From positions 64,785 to 128,784 of the forward strand of contig CAMCWV010000003.1 of the NCBI GenBank assembly GCA_945882915.1: a stretch of DNA of 64,000 bases, written 5' to 3'. A program made the position numbers and the translations under genes. Below are positions 56,393-60,132 of this stretch, in pieces. The number at the start of each line of letters is the position of its first letter. Positions within the stretch are counted from its first letter, which is position 1. A model generated the notes under the pieces. That model was given only the letters and a program-made list of their open reading frames with translations. It was not told the DNA's origin and made no database searches. The DNA is from Waddlia chondrophila WSU 86-1044 (GTDB lineage: Bacteria > Chlamydiota > Chlamydiia > Chlamydiales > CAMCWV01).

Positions 56393-56962
56393 ATGATGTT
56401 TCAGCAACACTGCCATAATTTCCACACTATCGTCAGCACTTGCATTTGTACTGATAGGCGAGGAGACTCTCTTGCTCCAGACCAAGCGATCAAGGACATT
56501 ATCGATCTATTGCTTACAACAAAACTTCAGAAAAGGAACATCTATCTTATCGGAAATGGAGGCAGCGCAGCAGTAGCAAGCCACCTTCTTGTTGACCTTG
56601 TCAATGGAGGAAGCCTTCGCGCTGCAGTCCTTCATGAGCCTTCTCTATTTACCTGCGGGGCTAACGACTATGGCTACGCTCACGCTTATTCACAGATGCT
56701 CAGCAAAGTTGCAGTCGAACAAGACCTTCTCATTGCCATCAGCAGCTCTGGCGAATCCCAAAACATCCTCAACGCCGTTTCAGCGGCAAAATCTGTCGGC
56801 TGCACGGTCATCACATTAACAGGCTTTCAGCAGGAAAATGCAATGCGAGGACAGGGGGATATTAATATCTGGCTTAACTCCAAAACCTATGGACAGGTAG
56901 AAGTCGGCCATCTCTTCTTCATGCACGCCGTCATCGACCAGCTCAAGAAAAAGAGCAACTAA
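56393..56962 (+). CDS. gmhA: SIS-domain protein, phosphoheptose isomerase (GmhA)-like
   Basis: 189 aa. Motifs: IGNGGSAAVASHLLVDL, AISSSGESQNILNAVSAAK..GCTVITLTG. Confidence 0.75.
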   Translation: MMFQQHCHNFHTIVSTCICTDRRGDSLAPDQAIKDIIDLLLTTKLQKRNIYLIGNGGSAAVASHLLVDLVNGGSLRAAVLHEPSLFTCGANDYGYAHAYSQMLSKVAVEQDLLIAISSSGESQNILNAVSAAKSVGCTVITLTGFQQENAMRGQGDINIWLNSKTYGQVEVGHLFFMHAVIDQLKKKSN

Positions 56963-56973
56963 AAAAAAATACT

Positions 56974-57095
56974 TTTAACGCAAAGACGCAAAGAAATACG
57001 GGTTTTGAAACATAGAGAACGTGAGAGAAAATACAAAAACAGGATAGGCAGGATCAGCCTTCAGCTGTCAGGATAAAAAGTAAAAAAAGCATCCT
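56974..57095. repeat. PE-B single arm downstream of gmhA
   Basis: TTTAACGCAAAGACGCAAAGAAATACGGGTTTTGAAACATAGAGAACGTGAGAGAAAATACAAAAACAGGATAGGCAGGATCAGCCTTCAGCTG. Confidence 0.7.
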
Positions 57096-57119
57096 ATACT
57101 CCTCTTAGCCCACCTTCTG

Positions 57120-58265
57120 CTATTTTAGGAATGCGGGGAGGTGGTGTAACAAAGTGTCTACGCGCCTTTCCCAGGTATGCTCCCGCATGACCTTATCCGC
57201 GCTGCGCTGCCACACACGCTCTCTTTTGTCGTCATCTGCAACATAGTCCCGGACAGTCTCATTCAGAGCGCTCCAGTTGCCATAGCGATAAACAGCGCTA
57301 TCAACCCCCTGAGTAAAGTTCTCTCTCATAAAGACTGTGTCGTTTGTCACGACAAGACTCCCCGCTGCCGTTCCCAAGAAAAAGCGCTCATGCCCTCCAA
57401 AAGCAAGGCAAGGAGCGCTATTGAGGACGAGCTTACTCTTTGTCATCATCTTGATAGACTCTTCAAAAGGGATGAGGGGGCGCAAAGAAACATTAGACTG
57501 CCCTCCAAGATACTTATGCCATGAACCATCGCCAAAAACAGTCACAGAAGCATCCCGAATCGCCTTGATCATCTCAACGCGGTGACGTCCTCTTACATAC
57601 CACTCAAGCTGAATGGCAAGCCCCCTCCACACTGTATTTTCCTTAAAATCACCCCAAGGAATCTTGTCTCCAAAAGCCGCAGCCATCGCTTCTATAAGAC
57701 CCATTTTATCTCCTTGGGCCAACGCCATTTCAGCAGCAATATCCATTAAAGAAGCAAGGCTCTTTGGTAAATGCAAAAGCCATCCCTGCCGCGCCTGTTC
57801 ATAATCAAAACACTTGCCAAAGAAAACCACATCAAACTCTTTTTCCTTAGGCGCCGGTATAAGCTCATCAGCTGCATGAAAAAGAACAAGTGAGCGATCG
57901 AAGTTAAAATGCTTCTTAAAAAAAGCAGGCGCTGTAGTTTCGATTCCAGCAATAATCGTATGGGGACTTTTTAGGAATGTGTCATAAAAAACGTAGAGGT
58001 CTATTCCGTATACAACACACGGAATCTCAAGCTGCTCACAAATTTTAACAACCTGCAGACTCTCCTCGGTCTTTCCCATGACAACAAAGCAGCAGTCCGG
58101 ACGGTCTGCCGCAAGCTGCTGAATAAGTTCGCGCGGATCATAACCGTCATGAAGGGGATAATAGGGGGCCTCGACACCCCTTTTGAGAAGGGCCTGCCGG
58201 ATGTACCAACTATACCGCGGAGCATAAAGCCACTTAGGGGCAAAGACCCCCACCTTTTTAATCAT
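57120..58265 (-). CDS. CgeB-like glycosyltransferase (DUF3880 / Glyco_trans_1_2-like)
   Basis: 381 aa. The C-terminal region LVLNSAPCLAFGGHERFFLGTAAGSLVVTND...ENFTQGVDSAVY resembles Glyco_trans_1_2. ATGA overlap with the upstream gene. Confidence 0.6.
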   Translation of the reverse strand: MIKKVGVFAPKWLYAPRYSWYIRQALLKRGVEAPYYPLHDGYDPRELIQQLAADRPDCCFVVMGKTEESLQVVKICEQLEIPCVVYGIDLYVFYDTFLKSPHTIIAGIETTAPAFFKKHFNFDRSLVLFHAADELIPAPKEKEFDVVFFGKCFDYEQARQGWLLHLPKSLASLMDIAAEMALAQGDKMGLIEAMAAAFGDKIPWGDFKENTVWRGLAIQLEWYVRGRHRVEMIKAIRDASVTVFGDGSWHKYLGGQSNVSLRPLIPFEESIKMMTKSKLVLNSAPCLAFGGHERFFLGTAAGSLVVTNDTVFMRENFTQGVDSAVYRYGNWSALNETVRDYVADDDKRERVWQRSADKVMREHTWERRVDTLLHHLPAFLK

Positions 58266-59377
58266 CGTTTCTCCAGGCTCATCACAATATCTTTTCTAAT
58301 CTCTTCAAACGTCCTTTTAGGAGCAAACACGTAGCGACACATCTTCTTTCTGATCTCCCCAAACAGCTCTTGATCACGAGGCAAAGCCGCTTCAACAATC
58401 GAATAAAACTGGGCGTACTGAGAGGGCTTAATAATCGATCCACATTGATACAAGAAAAAGCGTGGGTCCTCTTTTAAATCCTCTTCATAGGCGTGAAAGA
58501 AGAACATGGGTTTGGCAAAAGGGAGGCAGTCGTAGCCAACAGAAGAGATATCCCCAACAAAAATGGAGCAGGCGGATAATAGAGGAAGAACTAACGGGTA
58601 ATTGCCAAGGATCACAATATTTCGCTTGTGCTCATACCGAGCAAGAAACAGCTCATACGCAGCTGGCATGAAGGCAGCAAAATAGGGATGGAGCTTTACG
58701 ACCAAGTTATAGTGGTCTGGAAGCTTGTCTAAGATGTGTGTGTAGGTCCCAATAATAGAAGAGGTCACATCAAAACTTTGGGCTGTTGGCGCGTAGAAAA
58801 TGGTTGGCTGCTGTTTAGCAAACCTTGAAAAGACCTCTTCTTGAACAAGCTTATCGTGGTACTGAAGGTGTTGCTCGTAATAGGTGTAGCGATAGTTGCC
58901 GGTGACAACATGCCCTGCGAGTTTATCAAACACTCCTTTGCTTTTCAGGATCTCGATCATCCTATCACCGTAAAGAAGGCTAATATCTTCCTCGGCAAAC
59001 CGCTCGAAAAAGTTATCTAGCTCAATTCCCTTATCAGAGTTGCCATGAGAGCAAAAGACAGACCTAAGCTTCTTGCCATAGACAGCTTCTGCCTCGCCAA
59101 AAGTCTCTCTAAACGCCTTGCGCCCCCAAAAATGAGAGTAGAAAAGCACATCATAAGTGGAGACTAAGGGTTCAGGAAGAAAGGTTCTCCACTCCTCACA
59201 AGAGACCTGCGCTCCTGGATAATAGTGATGGACTTTCTCTTCGACTTCAACATCGGTGACTAAAAGAGGTGCTCCGGTAATGCAGCTGATCACCGCTAGA
59301 TGATCCATCTGATAGGCAGCCTCTGGACGCTGACAAAAAATTGCATAGTTCATTGAGATACCTATTGCATGATCCAA
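58262..59377 (-). CDS. CDP-glycerol/ribitol glycerophosphotransferase-like protein (TagB/TagF, Glyphos_transf family)
   Basis: 371 aa. Motifs: CSHGNSDKG, IFYAPT, KLHP, GDISSVGYDCLPFAKPMFFF. These parallel the TagF catalytic motifs as I recall them. Confidence 0.65.
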   Translation of the reverse strand: MDHAIGISMNYAIFCQRPEAAYQMDHLAVISCITGAPLLVTDVEVEEKVHHYYPGAQVSCEEWRTFLPEPLVSTYDVLFYSHFWGRKAFRETFGEAEAVYGKKLRSVFCSHGNSDKGIELDNFFERFAEEDISLLYGDRMIEILKSKGVFDKLAGHVVTGNYRYTYYEQHLQYHDKLVQEEVFSRFAKQQPTIFYAPTAQSFDVTSSIIGTYTHILDKLPDHYNLVVKLHPYFAAFMPAAYELFLARYEHKRNIVILGNYPLVLPLLSACSIFVGDISSVGYDCLPFAKPMFFFHAYEEDLKEDPRFFLYQCGSIIKPSQYAQFYSIVEAALPRDQELFGEIRKKMCRYVFAPKRTFEEIRKDIVMSLEKR

Positions 59378-60132
59378 ACCGGCGCTCCCAAAGGAGTCTT
59401 CTCGAATAAGCGGGTGACATCAGGAGTGCTCATACGGATACAACCATGTGAAGCCGGCGTCCCTAGCTTCTCTTCCTCAGGCGTGGCGTGGATATAAATA
59501 TGCCGCAGTTTACTATCAACAAGCCACCCCTGCCCATCTTCTCCCCGATTTAAACCATCCTCGAGTCCTTCTAAAACAAGAATACGTGAGAGAACCAAAT
59601 CTTGCCTTGTTTTCTTGCCGGCGTCCGGATTCCACCGTTTCCCCGTATCACGCCCTCCACTAAAAATAGTGTAGGGGGCAGCTGTTTTGCCGATCTTGTT
59701 AGCAATTCTATGAAGACCAAGGGGCGTCTGAAAACTTGACTCTCTCTGCCCGACCCCTTTTGCTGCTGACGAGATCGTATATGACTCCAAAAGCCTTTGA
59801 TTTTCGTACAAGCTCAATGTCTGATCGGAAATTTTAATTACAATGATGTGAGAGCTCTCGTAATTCATCTTCTGCAGTTTTGCTTGGACTTCACGAGGAA
59901 TTGGCGAAGGCTTAGTAGGCGCTAAGACGGCCGCCTGAGCTGGCTCCACTTTAGCGGGAGCTGTTTTAACTGGCGCTGCTTTAGCTGGAGCTGTTTTGGA
60001 AGAAGGCGCGGGCGGCTCTGTTAACAAGTCTACTTTTGCACTAGCAGAGACAGCTGCTCTAGGCATACCAGCATATGCCGGGAAAATAGTAAGGCAAAAT
60101 CCAATAATTATGAGGTACAAAGCTTGCATCAA
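59362..60132 (-). CDS. L,D-transpeptidase (YkuD domain), secreted
   Basis: 256 aa with a signal peptide and an Ala/Pro/Lys-rich linker (KTAPAKAAPVKTAPAKVEPA). Catalytic motif HATPEEEKLGTPASHGCIRM. Confidence 0.85.
   Translation of the reverse strand: MMQALYLIIIGFCLTIFPAYAGMPRAAVSASAKVDLLTEPPAPSSKTAPAKAAPVKTAPAKVEPAQAAVLAPTKPSPIPREVQAKLQKMNYESSHIIVIKISDQTLSLYENQRLLESYTISSAAKGVGQRESSFQTPLGLHRIANKIGKTAAPYTIFSGGRDTGKRWNPDAGKKTRQDLVLSRILVLEGLEDGLNRGEDGQGWLVDSKLRHIYIHATPEEEKLGTPASHGCIRMSTPDVTRLFEKTPLGAPVWIMQ

What the first reader, a model, noticed from the sequence alone, without database searches (positions are those of the whole stretch)
56393..60132. L,D-transpeptidase / TagF-like / CgeB-like operon next to gmhA: possible cell-wall-linked glycopolymer system in a chlamydia
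Seen directly: three minus-strand genes have overlapping ends. The LDT (59362-60132) overlaps the TagB/TagF-like gene (58262-59377) by 16 nt. That gene overlaps the CgeB-like glycosyltransferase (57120-58265) by 4 nt (ATGA). The string converges on a GmhA-like SIS protein (56393-56962). The LDT has the YkuD catalytic SHGC motif and a signal peptide. The middle protein carries motifs resembling TagF (HGNSDKG, YAPT, KLHP, GD.SS..YD). Established knowledge: TagB/TagF enzymes polymerise or prime polyol-phosphate (teichoic-acid or capsule-type) polymers, which are not a known feature of Chlamydiae. Chlamydia-related bacteria do make peptidoglycan, and unusual muropeptide modifications have been reported for some environmental lineages. 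Inference: translational coupling of a PG cross-linking enzyme with a polyol-phosphate transferase and a GT suggests a previously undescribed peptidoglycan- or LPS-associated glycopolymer pathway.
Basis: partly seen in the sequence, partly recalled or inferred. Interest (0 to 1): 0.6.

Follow-up and report, generated by a model that had tools for sequence, protein, structure and literature searches.

The report
Chlamydial TagF-like transferase gene cluster
An uncultured environmental chlamydia packs a secreted cell-wall peptidase-type enzyme, a true teichoic-acid-type (TagF-family) phosphotransferase and a sugar transferase into one tight gene string, but only the phosphotransferase is widespread in chlamydiae, the string is specific to this species, and nothing yet ties it to peptidoglycan.

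Summary
All four ORFs, the quoted motifs and the ATGA overlap are present. The 16-nt overlap depends on choosing a TTG start.

The middle protein is a true member of the TagF/TagB family. Pfam scores it above threshold, and a profile-profile alignment to TarL/TarF-type enzymes gives 99.2% probability. Both catalytic histidines are conserved. It has only the GT-B core, so it is the size of TagB/TarF, not of a polymerase. It belongs to a clade spread across environmental Chlamydiota, with 388 genome hits and 349 metagenome hits. The searchable literature does not discuss this clade.

In 160 other loci the gene never neighbours a YkuD, CgeB-like or SIS gene. It usually overlaps mcsB or sits in tandem after a FlgN-like gene. 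End overlap is therefore not evidence of shared function.

Pairing of the TagF-like gene with a CgeB-like GT recurs in one other divergent lineage (L105). The YkuD protein is ElsL-like but carries a leader, so cross-linking activity is not established. The 64-kb window has no donor-synthesis, export or ligase genes.

Verdict: this is probably a module that decorates a glycoconjugate with sugar and alcohol-phosphate. A link to peptidoglycan is unsupported.

The parts
59362..60132 (-). YkuD-fold enzyme of 256 aa (255 aa from the ATG at 60129). N-terminal hydrophobic leader MMQALYLIIIGFCLTIFPAYA|G (about 60067-60132). Ala/Pro/Lys-rich linker (about 59851-60066). YkuD domain at residues 95-254 (59371-59850). 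IHAT His215 and SHGC Cys231 (motif codons 59440-59451).
   Evidence: Pfam YkuD 1.8e-24. The best NCBIfam match is ElsL L,D-carboxypeptidase at 3.5e-36, covering profile positions 8-158 of 164, but 124 bits is below the cut-off of 270. PDB YkuD matches. Leader hydrophobicity.
58262..59377 (-). TagB/TarF-sized member of the TagF (Glyphos_transf) family, 371 aa (363 aa from the ATG at 59353). It has the GT-B core only, with no leader and no transmembrane segment. Catalytic His111 is at 59045-59047 and His230 at 58688-58690.
   Evidence: Pfam PF04464 28.8 bits, above the gathering score of 22.1. A profile of 41 homologs hits TarL 8va1 at 3.4e-7, Bcs3 at 2e-6 and Cps3D at 2.9e-5. hhalign against 8 bona fide TagF-family proteins gives 99.2%, E 5.3e-19, 327 columns; H111 aligns with TarL H300, K116 with K306 and H230 with H433. 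AF2 model pLDDT 90.9 with a GT-B fold; TagF 3l7j is among the top hits.
57120..58265 (-). CgeB-type (Glyco_trans_1_2) GT-B glycosyltransferase of 381 aa, cytoplasmic.
   Evidence: Pfam PF13524 2.3e-16. Exhaustive HMMER finds 1663 relatives. AF2 pLDDT 94.8. Foldseek top hits are retaining GT4 enzymes such as BshA, MshA, PimA and TarM.
58262..58265 (-). ATGA stop/start overlap between the TagF-like gene and the GT, with a GGAG 5 nt upstream of the ATG.
   Evidence: Sequence read directly.
59362..59377 (-). 16-nt overlap between the YkuD stop and the TTG start of the TagF-like gene (GGGAG 7 nt upstream). The alternative ATG start at 59353 leaves an 8-nt gap.
   Evidence: Sequence read directly. 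Gene callers differ, giving 363 or 371 aa.
56393..56962 (+). GmhA-family SIS-domain protein of 189 aa. It converges on the GT gene with a 157-nt gap. It is not part of the transcription unit, and a functional link is unproven.
   Evidence: Pfam SIS_2 1.5e-15. NCBIfam gmhA 3.8e-23 at 82 bits, below the cut-off of 209. The closest PDB chains are phosphoheptose isomerases at 6.6e-17, with DiaA at 2.7e-13.
60212..63856 (-). Upstream co-directional 1214-aa ORF with no family match, 79 nt before the YkuD gene. Whether it belongs to the same transcript is unknown.
   Evidence: No Pfam or NCBIfam hit. Conserved at 99-100% in the same-species assemblies.

Best explanation
The locus is a species-specific, probably co-transcribed string of three envelope genes in an uncultured environmental chlamydia.

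Shown: the middle gene encodes a catalytically intact member of the TagF family, the enzymes that transfer an alcohol-phosphate from a CDP-linked donor. It belongs to a clade that is near-universal in environmental Chlamydiota.

Inferred mechanism:
- Like TagB/TarF, it sits at the cytoplasmic face of the inner membrane.
- His111 acts as the base and His230 stabilises the leaving CMP.
- It transfers one or a few alcohol-phosphate units to a membrane-bound glycoconjugate acceptor. The donor is CDP-activated: CDP-glycerol, CDP-ribitol or another CDP-alcohol.
- The translationally coupled CgeB-type GT4-like enzyme adds a hexose to the same acceptor. Together they make a glycosyl-(alcohol)phosphate decoration.
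- The most economical acceptor in a diderm with Kdo-type LPS is the LPS/LOS core or another glycolipid, rather than a peptidoglycan-anchored teichoic acid.

The YkuD protein is a separately acting periplasmic enzyme of the ElsL-like subclass that works on peptidoglycan stem peptides, either as an L,D-carboxypeptidase or an L,D-transpeptidase. It is adjacent through genome compaction or rearrangement, not through a shared pathway. The GmhA-like gene is an unlinked neighbour.
For: Family membership:
- Pfam hit above the gathering score.
- PDB profile hits only to TarL, Bcs3 and Cps3D.
- Full-length hhalign at 99.2%, with H111, K116 and H230 aligned to TarL H300, K306 and H433. H300 and H433 are essential in TarL (PMC10901376).
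- These residues are invariant in 41 chlamydial homologs.

Size: the protein has the GT-B core only, and polymerases carry an extra N-terminal domain.

Topology: the TagF-like protein and the GT have no leader or transmembrane segment, while the YkuD protein has a leader.

Link between the TagF-like gene and the GT:
- ATGA overlap with an SD sequence.
- An independent TagF-like, TagF-like, CgeB-like GT string with an 8-nt overlap in L105. Its proteins are 39% and 29-31% identical to the window's, and the string sits in a cluster with two GT1 genes and a second CgeB-like GT.

LPS leaning: CgeB-like GTs on chlamydia-like contigs sit next to kdsB-pyrG (L104) or next to GT2, a deacetylase and GT4 (L093).

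YkuD unlinked:
- None of 160 TagF-like loci has a YkuD gene nearby.
- Three YkuD homolog contexts lack TagF-like and CgeB-like genes.
- The mcsB/TagF-like overlap in the closest relatives shows that overlap is generic for this gene.
Against: - No donor-synthesis gene (tagD, tarIJ, NTP-transferase), flippase, ABC exporter or ligase lies in the window. Bona fide TagF-family genes on plasmids usually sit beside such genes.
- Two motif positions differ from characterised enzymes. The Trp that stacks on the catalytic His is Pro or Ser here, and the Arg of YAPTxR is missing. Donor or acceptor chemistry may therefore differ.
- The pairing of the TagF-like gene with the GT is rare: two lineages, against none of 160 other loci.
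- The acceptor (LPS, PG or another molecule) is pure inference. No chemistry exists for it.
- Co-transcription is not shown, and the promoter/terminator scans did no better than shuffled sequence.
Confidence: 0.45

Rival explanations
1. Split teichoic-acid-like polymerase. The separate TagF-like and CgeB-like enzymes alternate, as the fused domains of Gram-negative TagF-like capsule polymerases (Cps3D, Bcs3) do. They build a poly(glycosyl-polyol-phosphate) surface polymer, a capsule or a teichoic-acid-like chain.
For: The chlamydial profile hits Bcs3 and Cps3D. The TagF-like and GT genes are translationally coupled. L105 holds 2 TagF-like genes, 2 CgeB-like GTs and 2 GT1 genes in one cluster, which looks like a polymer locus. 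Many Chlamydiota carry tandem TagF-like paralogs.
Against: The protein lacks the extra N-terminal or TPR domains of known polymerases. No KpsMT/CS-type or TagGH export genes and no donor genes are in the window. In most chlamydiae the gene stands alone in housekeeping contexts, without a GT partner.
Confidence: 0.2
2. Pure juxtaposition. All three genes have unrelated roles. The TagF-like gene does here whatever it does in every other environmental chlamydia, and it has simply been relocated next to a lineage-specific YkuD gene and a CgeB-like GT in a compact genome.
For: The arrangement is confined to one species. None of 160 other loci shows it. The same gene overlaps unrelated mcsB elsewhere. 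Eight of 27 co-directional pairs in the window are 10 nt or less apart, including unrelated tgt/rlmD. The window's protein is closer to the mcsB-linked orthologs (41-46%) than to the L105 copy (39%).
Against: A second, independent adjacency of a TagF-like gene and a CgeB-like GT, with overlapping ends, occurs in L105/L106. Both enzymes act on membrane-proximal glycoconjugates at the cytoplasmic face.
Confidence: 0.2
3. A peptidoglycan-anchored polyol-phosphate glycopolymer whose synthesis is coupled to L,D-transpeptidation by the YkuD enzyme.
For: The three genes are tightly packed. Protochlamydia peptidoglycan carries unidentified chemical modifications (PMC5814848, citing Pilhofer 2013), and Protochlamydia MAGs encode the TagF-like clade (L021).
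Against: YkuD adjacency is unique to this species. The YkuD domain is of the ElsL class, which is a carboxypeptidase. No LCP ligase, TagO/WecA or TagA is in the window. Simkania, from which no sacculus could be isolated, encodes two copies (P0037, P0043). The YkuD enzyme acts in the periplasm while the other two act in the cytoplasm.
Confidence: 0.1

Closest known systems
TagB / TarB / TarF: single-addition CDP-glycerol glycerophosphotransferases of Gram-positive wall teichoic acid synthesis (Pfam Glyphos_transf PF04464)
   Same: GT-B core only, about 370-390 aa. Both catalytic histidines, the conserved Lys after the first His, and the YAPT, KxHP and DxSSxxYD motifs are present. No leader, so a cytoplasmic, membrane-peripheral enzyme is expected.
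   Different: About 17% identity. Pro or Ser replaces the Trp before the catalytic His, and the Arg of YAPTxR is lost. The host is a diderm chlamydia. No tagD, tagO, tagA, tagGH or LCP genes are nearby. In other chlamydiae the gene sits in core housekeeping contexts (mcsAB, or flgN-like/mreC).
TagF-like capsule polymerases of Gram-negative pathogens (Cps3D, Cps7D, Bcs3; PMC5974469, PMC10299916)
   Same: A TagF-like phosphotransferase module in a Gram-negative organism, paired with a glycosyltransferase. The chlamydial profile hits Bcs3 and Cps3D.
   Different: Those are large multidomain fusions of about 1150 aa inside group-2 capsule loci that carry export genes. Here there are two separate small proteins and no export genes in view.
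ElsL, the leaderless cytoplasmic YkuD-family L,D-carboxypeptidase of Acinetobacter baumannii (PMC8649774)
   Same: Best NCBIfam match, almost end to end (profile positions 8-158 of 164, E 3.5e-36). A compact single YkuD domain with the His/Cys catalytic motif.
   Different: The score of 124 bits is below the cut-off of 270. The window protein has an N-terminal hydrophobic leader and a linker of about 70 aa rich in Ala, Pro and Lys, so it should be periplasmic. ElsL is cytoplasmic.
CgeB (Bacillus subtilis spore-crust glycosylation protein; Pfam Glyco_trans_1_2 PF13524)
   Same: Same Pfam family across the C-terminal half, and a GT-B fold.
   Different: No sporulation context. It belongs to a subfamily of about 390 aa with 1663 relatives at roughly 30% identity. 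Some of these lie on chlamydia-like contigs next to kdsB or other GT genes.
GmhA (sedoheptulose-7-phosphate isomerase)
   Same: The closest solved structures and the best NCBIfam models are GmhA. The GNGGS and His motifs align.
   Different: 82 bits against cut-offs of 209-320. Opposite strand. Never adjacent to TagF-like genes elsewhere.

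Membership tests
TagF/TagB family (Glyphos_transf, PF04464) | Significant match to the family profile | tested here: met
   Pfam 28.8 bits, above the gathering score of 22.1, though only for profile positions 191-308. Precomputed PF04464 on all 53 homologs. hhalign against 8 annotated family members gives 99.2%, E 5.3e-19, over the full length.
TagF/TagB family (Glyphos_transf, PF04464) | Two invariant catalytic histidines (TagF H444/H584, TarL H300/H433) | tested here: met
   H111 aligns with TarL H300 and H230 with TarL H433. Both are invariant in 41 chlamydial homologs. Their essentiality in TarL is taken from PMC10901376.
TagF/TagB family (Glyphos_transf, PF04464) | Trp preceding the catalytic His (stacks on the imidazole) and Arg in the YAPT(F/W)R motif | tested here: not met
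   The window has C-S-H, and the clade consensus is C-P-H. YAPTAQ or YAPTWxD replaces APTFR. These positions are conserved in characterised enzymes, but the paper read here does not list them as family-defining.
TagF/TagB family (Glyphos_transf, PF04464) | GT-B two-Rossmann fold | tested here: met
   AF2 pLDDT 90.9. Foldseek hits TagF 3l7j/3l7l at TM about 0.61, alongside other GT-B enzymes, so fold alone does not discriminate.
TagF/TagB family (Glyphos_transf, PF04464) | Uses a CDP-polyol donor and releases CMP | not testable with these tools
   Needs an enzyme assay.
TagF-type polymerase (TagF, TarL, TarK) | Additional N-terminal domain preceding the GT-B core | tested here: not met
   In the 371-aa protein the GT-B core starts at about residue 5 in both the model and the alignment. 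The criterion comes from PMC10901376.
Wall teichoic acid pathway | Companion genes tagO/wecA, tagA, tagD or tarIJ, tagGH and an LCP ligase | tested here: inconclusive
   None is found among the 44 larger ORFs (81 aa or more) of the 64-kb window or within 6 kb of the gene in 160 other loci. The one exception is an NTP_transf_3 nucleotidyltransferase in 22 of those loci. The rest of the genome could not be searched.
YkuD-family L,D-transpeptidase | YkuD domain with a catalytic His and the (S/T)HGC(I/V)R cysteine motif | tested here: met
   Pfam 1.8e-24 over profile positions 2-146 of 146. IHAT and SHGCIR are present.
YkuD-family L,D-transpeptidase | Forms 3-3 cross-links (transpeptidase rather than carboxypeptidase or amidase) | not testable with these tools
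   The domain is nearest to the ElsL carboxypeptidase class. Its activity must be assayed.
ElsL-class L,D-carboxypeptidase (NF040925) | Score above the NCBIfam cut-off, and a leaderless cytoplasmic protein | tested here: not met
   124.5 bits is below 270. A hydrophobic N-terminal leader is present. ElsL is leaderless and cytoplasmic.
CgeB-type glycosyltransferase (Glyco_trans_1_2, PF13524) | Profile match and GT-B fold | tested here: met
   60.5 bits, above 25. AF2 pLDDT 94.8, with GT4-type structures as top hits.
GmhA phosphoheptose isomerase | Equivalog-level score | tested here: not met
   The best score is 82.3 bits against a cut-off of 209. GmhA structures are nevertheless the closest solved relatives, at 6.6e-17.

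The most novel reading that the evidence does not exclude
Environmental Chlamydiota make a previously unrecognised envelope glycoconjugate that contains polyol- or alcohol-phosphate. It would be a teichoic-acid-like decoration of LPS or peptidoglycan, installed by a phylum-wide clade of TagB/TarF-like enzymes. In this species the pathway has been assembled into an operon with a CgeB-type GT and a secreted YkuD enzyme. This would couple the modification to remodelling of peptidoglycan stem peptides, and it might explain the unidentified muropeptide modifications reported for Protochlamydia.
Probability: 0.12. Interest if true: 0.75.

Novelty: new variant of a known kind. Interest (0 to 1): 0.4.

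Why it matters
Teichoic-acid-type phosphotransferases are textbook Gram-positive enzymes and were only recently recognised in a few Gram-negative capsule loci. This analysis shows that a catalytically intact, TagB-sized clade is encoded by most environmental chlamydial lineages, with 388 hits among species-level genomes. It is often present as tandem paralogs and sits in core-genome contexts. No paper in the searchable library discusses it.

The chemistry of the chlamydial envelope outside Chlamydiaceae is almost unknown, and unexplained peptidoglycan modifications have been reported for Protochlamydia. The clade gives a concrete, testable candidate for an undiscovered LPS or cell-wall decoration. 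That decoration could matter for host recognition in amoebae and animals.

Tried and rejected
- phmmer of the TagF-like protein and of the GT against PDB sequences gave nothing useful. A profile was needed.
- The word-index homolog search made the GT look like an orphan with 2 relatives. Exhaustive HMMER corrected this to 1663.
- The search for related loci with GT alignments failed because no stretch was conserved enough.
The related contig L106 was too short.
- Promoter and terminator scans matched the shuffled expectation.
- Rfam found nothing in the window.
- A second TagF-like copy, mcsAB, mreC or the nucleotidyltransferase neighbour in the window: none found.
- Horizontal-transfer signal from base composition: none. 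GC is 0.46-0.47 across the cluster, against 0.37-0.49 across the window's 2-kb bins.
- Most conserved neighbours in other loci (peptidase S15-like, RluA-like, S20, CcsA-like, YfiH-like) were read by eye as housekeeping genes and not pursued.
- The idea that the window's and L105's TagF-like genes form a special GT-linked subclade was rejected. Each is closer to the mcsB-linked orthologs than to the other.

Full report
**Observation**

The ORF list reproduces all four genes at the stated coordinates.
- Pfam assigns YkuD (1.8e-24) to 59362-60132(-).
- It assigns Glyphos_transf (28.8 bits, gathering score 22.1, but only profile positions 191-308) to 58262-59377(-).
- It assigns Glyco_trans_1_2 (2.3e-16) to 57120-58265(-).
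- It assigns SIS_2 (1.5e-15) to 56393-56962(+).

The quoted motifs are all present. The ATGA overlap between the TagF-like gene and the GT is real and is preceded by GGAG.

The 16-nt overlap between the YkuD and TagF-like genes depends on a TTG start, which has a good GGGAG 7 nt upstream. A downstream ATG gives a 363-aa product and an 8-nt gap, and several public gene calls use it.

A chlamydial origin is supported by hctA/Hc1 550 nt away and by the taxonomy of every TagF-like relative.

The identical string occurs in six independent assemblies, including NCBI MAG GCA_947446165.1. All are at least 99.6% identical in nucleotide sequence, so they are one species.

**The TagF-like protein**

A homolog search returned 53 proteins, all with PF04464. 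Parachlamydia acanthamoebae UV-7 and Simkania are among them.

An alignment of 41 homologs shows invariant H26, H111-G-x-S-D-K116, Y195-A-P-T, K228-x-H230-P and G275-D-x-S-S..Y-D283.

A profile built from that alignment hits only TagF-family chains in the PDB: TarL at 3.4e-7, Bcs3 at 2e-6 and Cps3D at 2.9e-5. KLHP aligns to TarL KMHP, which contains H433.

To test the N-terminal catalytic histidine, eight annotated TagF-family genes were taken from plasmid records. These were TarL-like and TarF genes plus other CDP-glycerol glycerophosphotransferases. hhalign against them gave 99.2% probability, E 5.3e-19 and 327 aligned columns. Window H111 and K116 lie on the W-H-A-V-G-A-F-K loop, which is TarL H300 and K306.

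The TarL paper states that H300 and H433 are essential. It also states that polymerases carry an additional N-terminal domain (PMC10901376). The window protein has the GT-B core only: 371 aa, with an AF2 model at pLDDT 90.9. Foldseek confirms a GT-B fold with TagF among the top hits, but it does not discriminate TagF from other GT-B enzymes.

There are two deviations from characterised enzymes. The Trp before the catalytic His is Pro or Ser, and the Arg of YAPTxR is absent.

Conclusion: this is a true, probably active family member of TagB/TarF size, belonging to a divergent chlamydial clade.

**Distribution and context of the clade**

A scan of one genome per species found 388 relatives. The top 80 are almost all Chlamydiota MAGs: Parachlamydiaceae, Simkaniaceae, Rhabdochlamydiaceae, Waddliaceae and Neptunochlamydia. 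The best identity is 46%. A scan of JGI metagenomes found 349 more.

tblastn searches used the window's YkuD, GT and SIS proteins. A second round added divergent GT and YkuD relatives as queries. Neither found a hit within 6 kb of the TagF-like gene in any of the 160 loci.

Two other contexts are strongly conserved instead:
- Context I: pyrH-frr-mcsA-mcsB-TagF-like. In 14 of the 80 genome loci and 8 of the 80 metagenome loci, an NTP_transf_3 nucleotidyltransferase follows on the opposite strand. This is a candidate donor synthase.
- Context II: GT4, mutY, flgN-like, then a tandem pair of TagF-like genes, with mreC and an aminotransferase beyond.

In the window protein's closest relatives the TagF-like gene overlaps mcsB by 1-4 nt (median distance -7.5 nt over 38 loci). 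End overlap with the upstream gene is therefore a generic feature of this gene in compact chlamydial genomes. It does not indicate a shared pathway.

In the window itself, 8 of 27 co-directional neighbour pairs lie 10 nt or less apart, including unrelated tgt/rlmD.

**The glycosyltransferase**

The word-indexed search suggested a near-orphan. Exhaustive HMMER found 1663 relatives, 157 of them below 1e-30.

The AF2 model (pLDDT 94.8) is a GT-B fold. It is closest to retaining GT4 enzymes such as BshA, MshA, PimA and TarM.

Contexts of relatives:
- a tandem pair (L087);
- a fused double GT (L095);
- on a chlamydia-like contig with a long GreA and a SWIB gene, a cluster with GT2, a polysaccharide deacetylase and GT4 (L093);
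- on another chlamydia-like contig, a position directly upstream of kdsB-pyrG (L104).

L105 is the important case. It carries two chlamydial-clade TagF-like genes (HMM score 434 bits, 39% identical to the window's), followed by a CgeB-like GT that overlaps by 8 nt. Two GT1 genes and a second CgeB-like GT follow. L106 is a second contig from that lineage.

This is the only independent support for a functional pairing of the TagF-like enzyme and the GT. It is rare. It nevertheless resembles the module logic of TagF-like capsule polymerases, which fuse a GT to a TagF-like domain (PMC5974469).

**The YkuD protein**

Its best NCBIfam match is ElsL (3.5e-36, nearly the whole profile, but below the cut-off). 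Classical Ldt models match only the Cys motif.

ElsL is a leaderless cytoplasmic L,D-carboxypeptidase with orthologs in Proteobacteria and Verrucomicrobia (PMC8649774). The window protein instead has a hydrophobic leader ending in AYA|G and a linker rich in Ala, Pro and Lys. About one third of its 120 listed homologs also have a hydrophobic N-terminus.

It is therefore a periplasmic YkuD enzyme of the ElsL-like subclass, and whether it is a transpeptidase or a carboxypeptidase is open.

A review found no LD-transpeptidase in the classical chlamydial genomes (PMC5814848). However, one 53%-identical homolog lies on a contig that shares a GT2-epimerase-NTP_transferase block (47-65% identity) with a Parachlamydiaceae MAG (L090 versus L022). 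The enzyme is therefore not unique to this species.

None of the three homolog contexts examined contains a TagF-like or CgeB-like gene.

**The SIS protein and the rest of the window**

The SIS protein is GmhA-like. Phosphoheptose isomerase structures match at 6.6e-17 and DiaA at 2.7e-13. It scores far below the equivalog cut-offs, lies on the opposite strand, and is unlinked to TagF-like genes elsewhere.

Pfam scans of 30 further window ORFs show housekeeping genes plus an LpxL-type acyltransferase and GT4 pair at 13.6-16.1 kb. There is no tagD, tarIJ, nucleotidyltransferase, tagO/wecA, ABC exporter or LCP gene. There is also no second TagF-like copy, mcsAB or mreC.

By contrast, TagF-family genes on Gram-positive and Bacteroides plasmids sit beside tagD, tarIJ-like and ABC-transporter genes.

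**Interpretation**

Shown:
- a catalytically intact TagB/TarF-sized phosphotransferase from a Chlamydiota-wide clade;
- a CgeB-type GT-B transferase translationally coupled to it;
- a leadered ElsL-like YkuD enzyme just upstream;
- an arrangement confined to one species.

Inferred:
- The two cytoplasmic transferases probably cooperate on one membrane-bound glycoconjugate and add sugar and alcohol-phosphate.
- A short decoration is favoured by the absence of a polymerase domain.
- An LPS or glycolipid acceptor is favoured by diderm biology and by the kdsB-linked and GT-cluster contexts of CgeB-like relatives.
- The YkuD enzyme acts separately in the periplasm.

Rival readings remain open: a split polymerase, pure juxtaposition, and a PG-anchored polymer.

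**Novelty and score**

The enzyme families are known, and databases already label the chlamydial proteins as CDP-glycerol glycerophosphotransferase family members. No searchable paper addresses them. The clade's breadth, its core-genome contexts, its motif deviations and its occurrence in a phylum with no known polyol-phosphate glycoconjugate make it a new variant of a known kind.

The lead worth following is the clade, not the operon. Interest is 0.4.

Noticed in passing
window 12010-12169, 12170-12329, 31389-31548, 41179-41338; related copies at 51822-51989 and 52435-52602: A dispersed intergenic repeat of about 160-168 nt. Two copies are in tandem (98% identical) and others are 61-94% identical. 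Two inverted-orientation copies flank yajC. No Rfam match. It could be a MITE- or REP-like element of this chlamydial genome.
   Followed up: partly
window 9519-9553, 18288-18322, 31264-31298, 33704-33738: A 35-nt motif, GTCCAAGTTCCCATTTTCAGCTACGAGGAGTATAT, is conserved at four intergenic sites (repeat family D2). One copy lies just upstream of alaS. It may be a regulatory or terminator/promoter element.
   Followed up: no
window 22288-22386 and 23916-24014 (99-nt direct repeats, 98% identical); GC 0.37 at 24001-26000: A gene-poor stretch of about 1.6 kb is bracketed by near-identical 99-nt direct repeats, next to the lowest-GC part of the window. Further short repeat copies (D4, D7) lie inside it. 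It could be a remnant of an inserted or mobile element.
   Followed up: no
window 55458-55844 (hctA): The histone-like HctA is polymorphic between assemblies of the same species (78-98% amino-acid identity, 123 versus 128 aa), while flanking genes are 99-100% identical. The Lys/Ala-rich C-terminal repeat tail would be the obvious place for this variation, but its position was not examined.
   Followed up: partly
window 13602-18211: A co-directional string: an LpxL/HtrB-type lipid A acyltransferase (439 aa), a GT4 glycosyltransferase (387 aa), a 417-aa protein with no family match, and the diadenylate cyclase CdaA. This is a second envelope glycolipid locus in the window and a candidate source of the acceptor.
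   Followed up: no
window 60212-63856 and 19294-22131: Two large ORFs (1214 aa and 945 aa) have no Pfam or NCBIfam match. The 1214-aa one lies 79 nt upstream of the YkuD gene on the same strand.
   Followed up: no
L001-L080 and L109-L188 (for example L107 644-2826, L108 6220-8387): Across environmental Chlamydiota the TagF-like gene is either fused in an operon-like way to mcsA-mcsB, overlapping mcsB, or present as a tandem pair after a FlgN-like gene near mreC. In 22 of 160 loci an NTP_transf_3 nucleotidyltransferase lies next to it. This is a candidate CDP-donor synthase.
   Followed up: partly
L105 1-8170 (JGI 3300014198, Ga0181608_109142): A chlamydial contig with 2 TagF-like genes, 2 CgeB-like GTs and 2 near-identical GT1 genes in one cluster. 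It is the best candidate locus for a teichoic-acid-like glycopolymer in Chlamydiota. Its upstream 3.4 kb could not be retrieved.
   Followed up: partly
L090 565-4768 versus L022 9527-12236: A leadered YkuD homolog, 53% identical to the window's, lies about 0.9 kb from a GT2-epimerase-NTP_transferase block. In a Parachlamydiaceae MAG the same block lies about 2.5 kb downstream of the TagF-like gene.
   Followed up: no
window 47311-50463: A 1050-aa protein with an FGE-sulfatase (formylglycine-generating enzyme-like) domain plus faint CopC and SpaA-like domains. This is unusual for a chlamydial genome.
   Followed up: no
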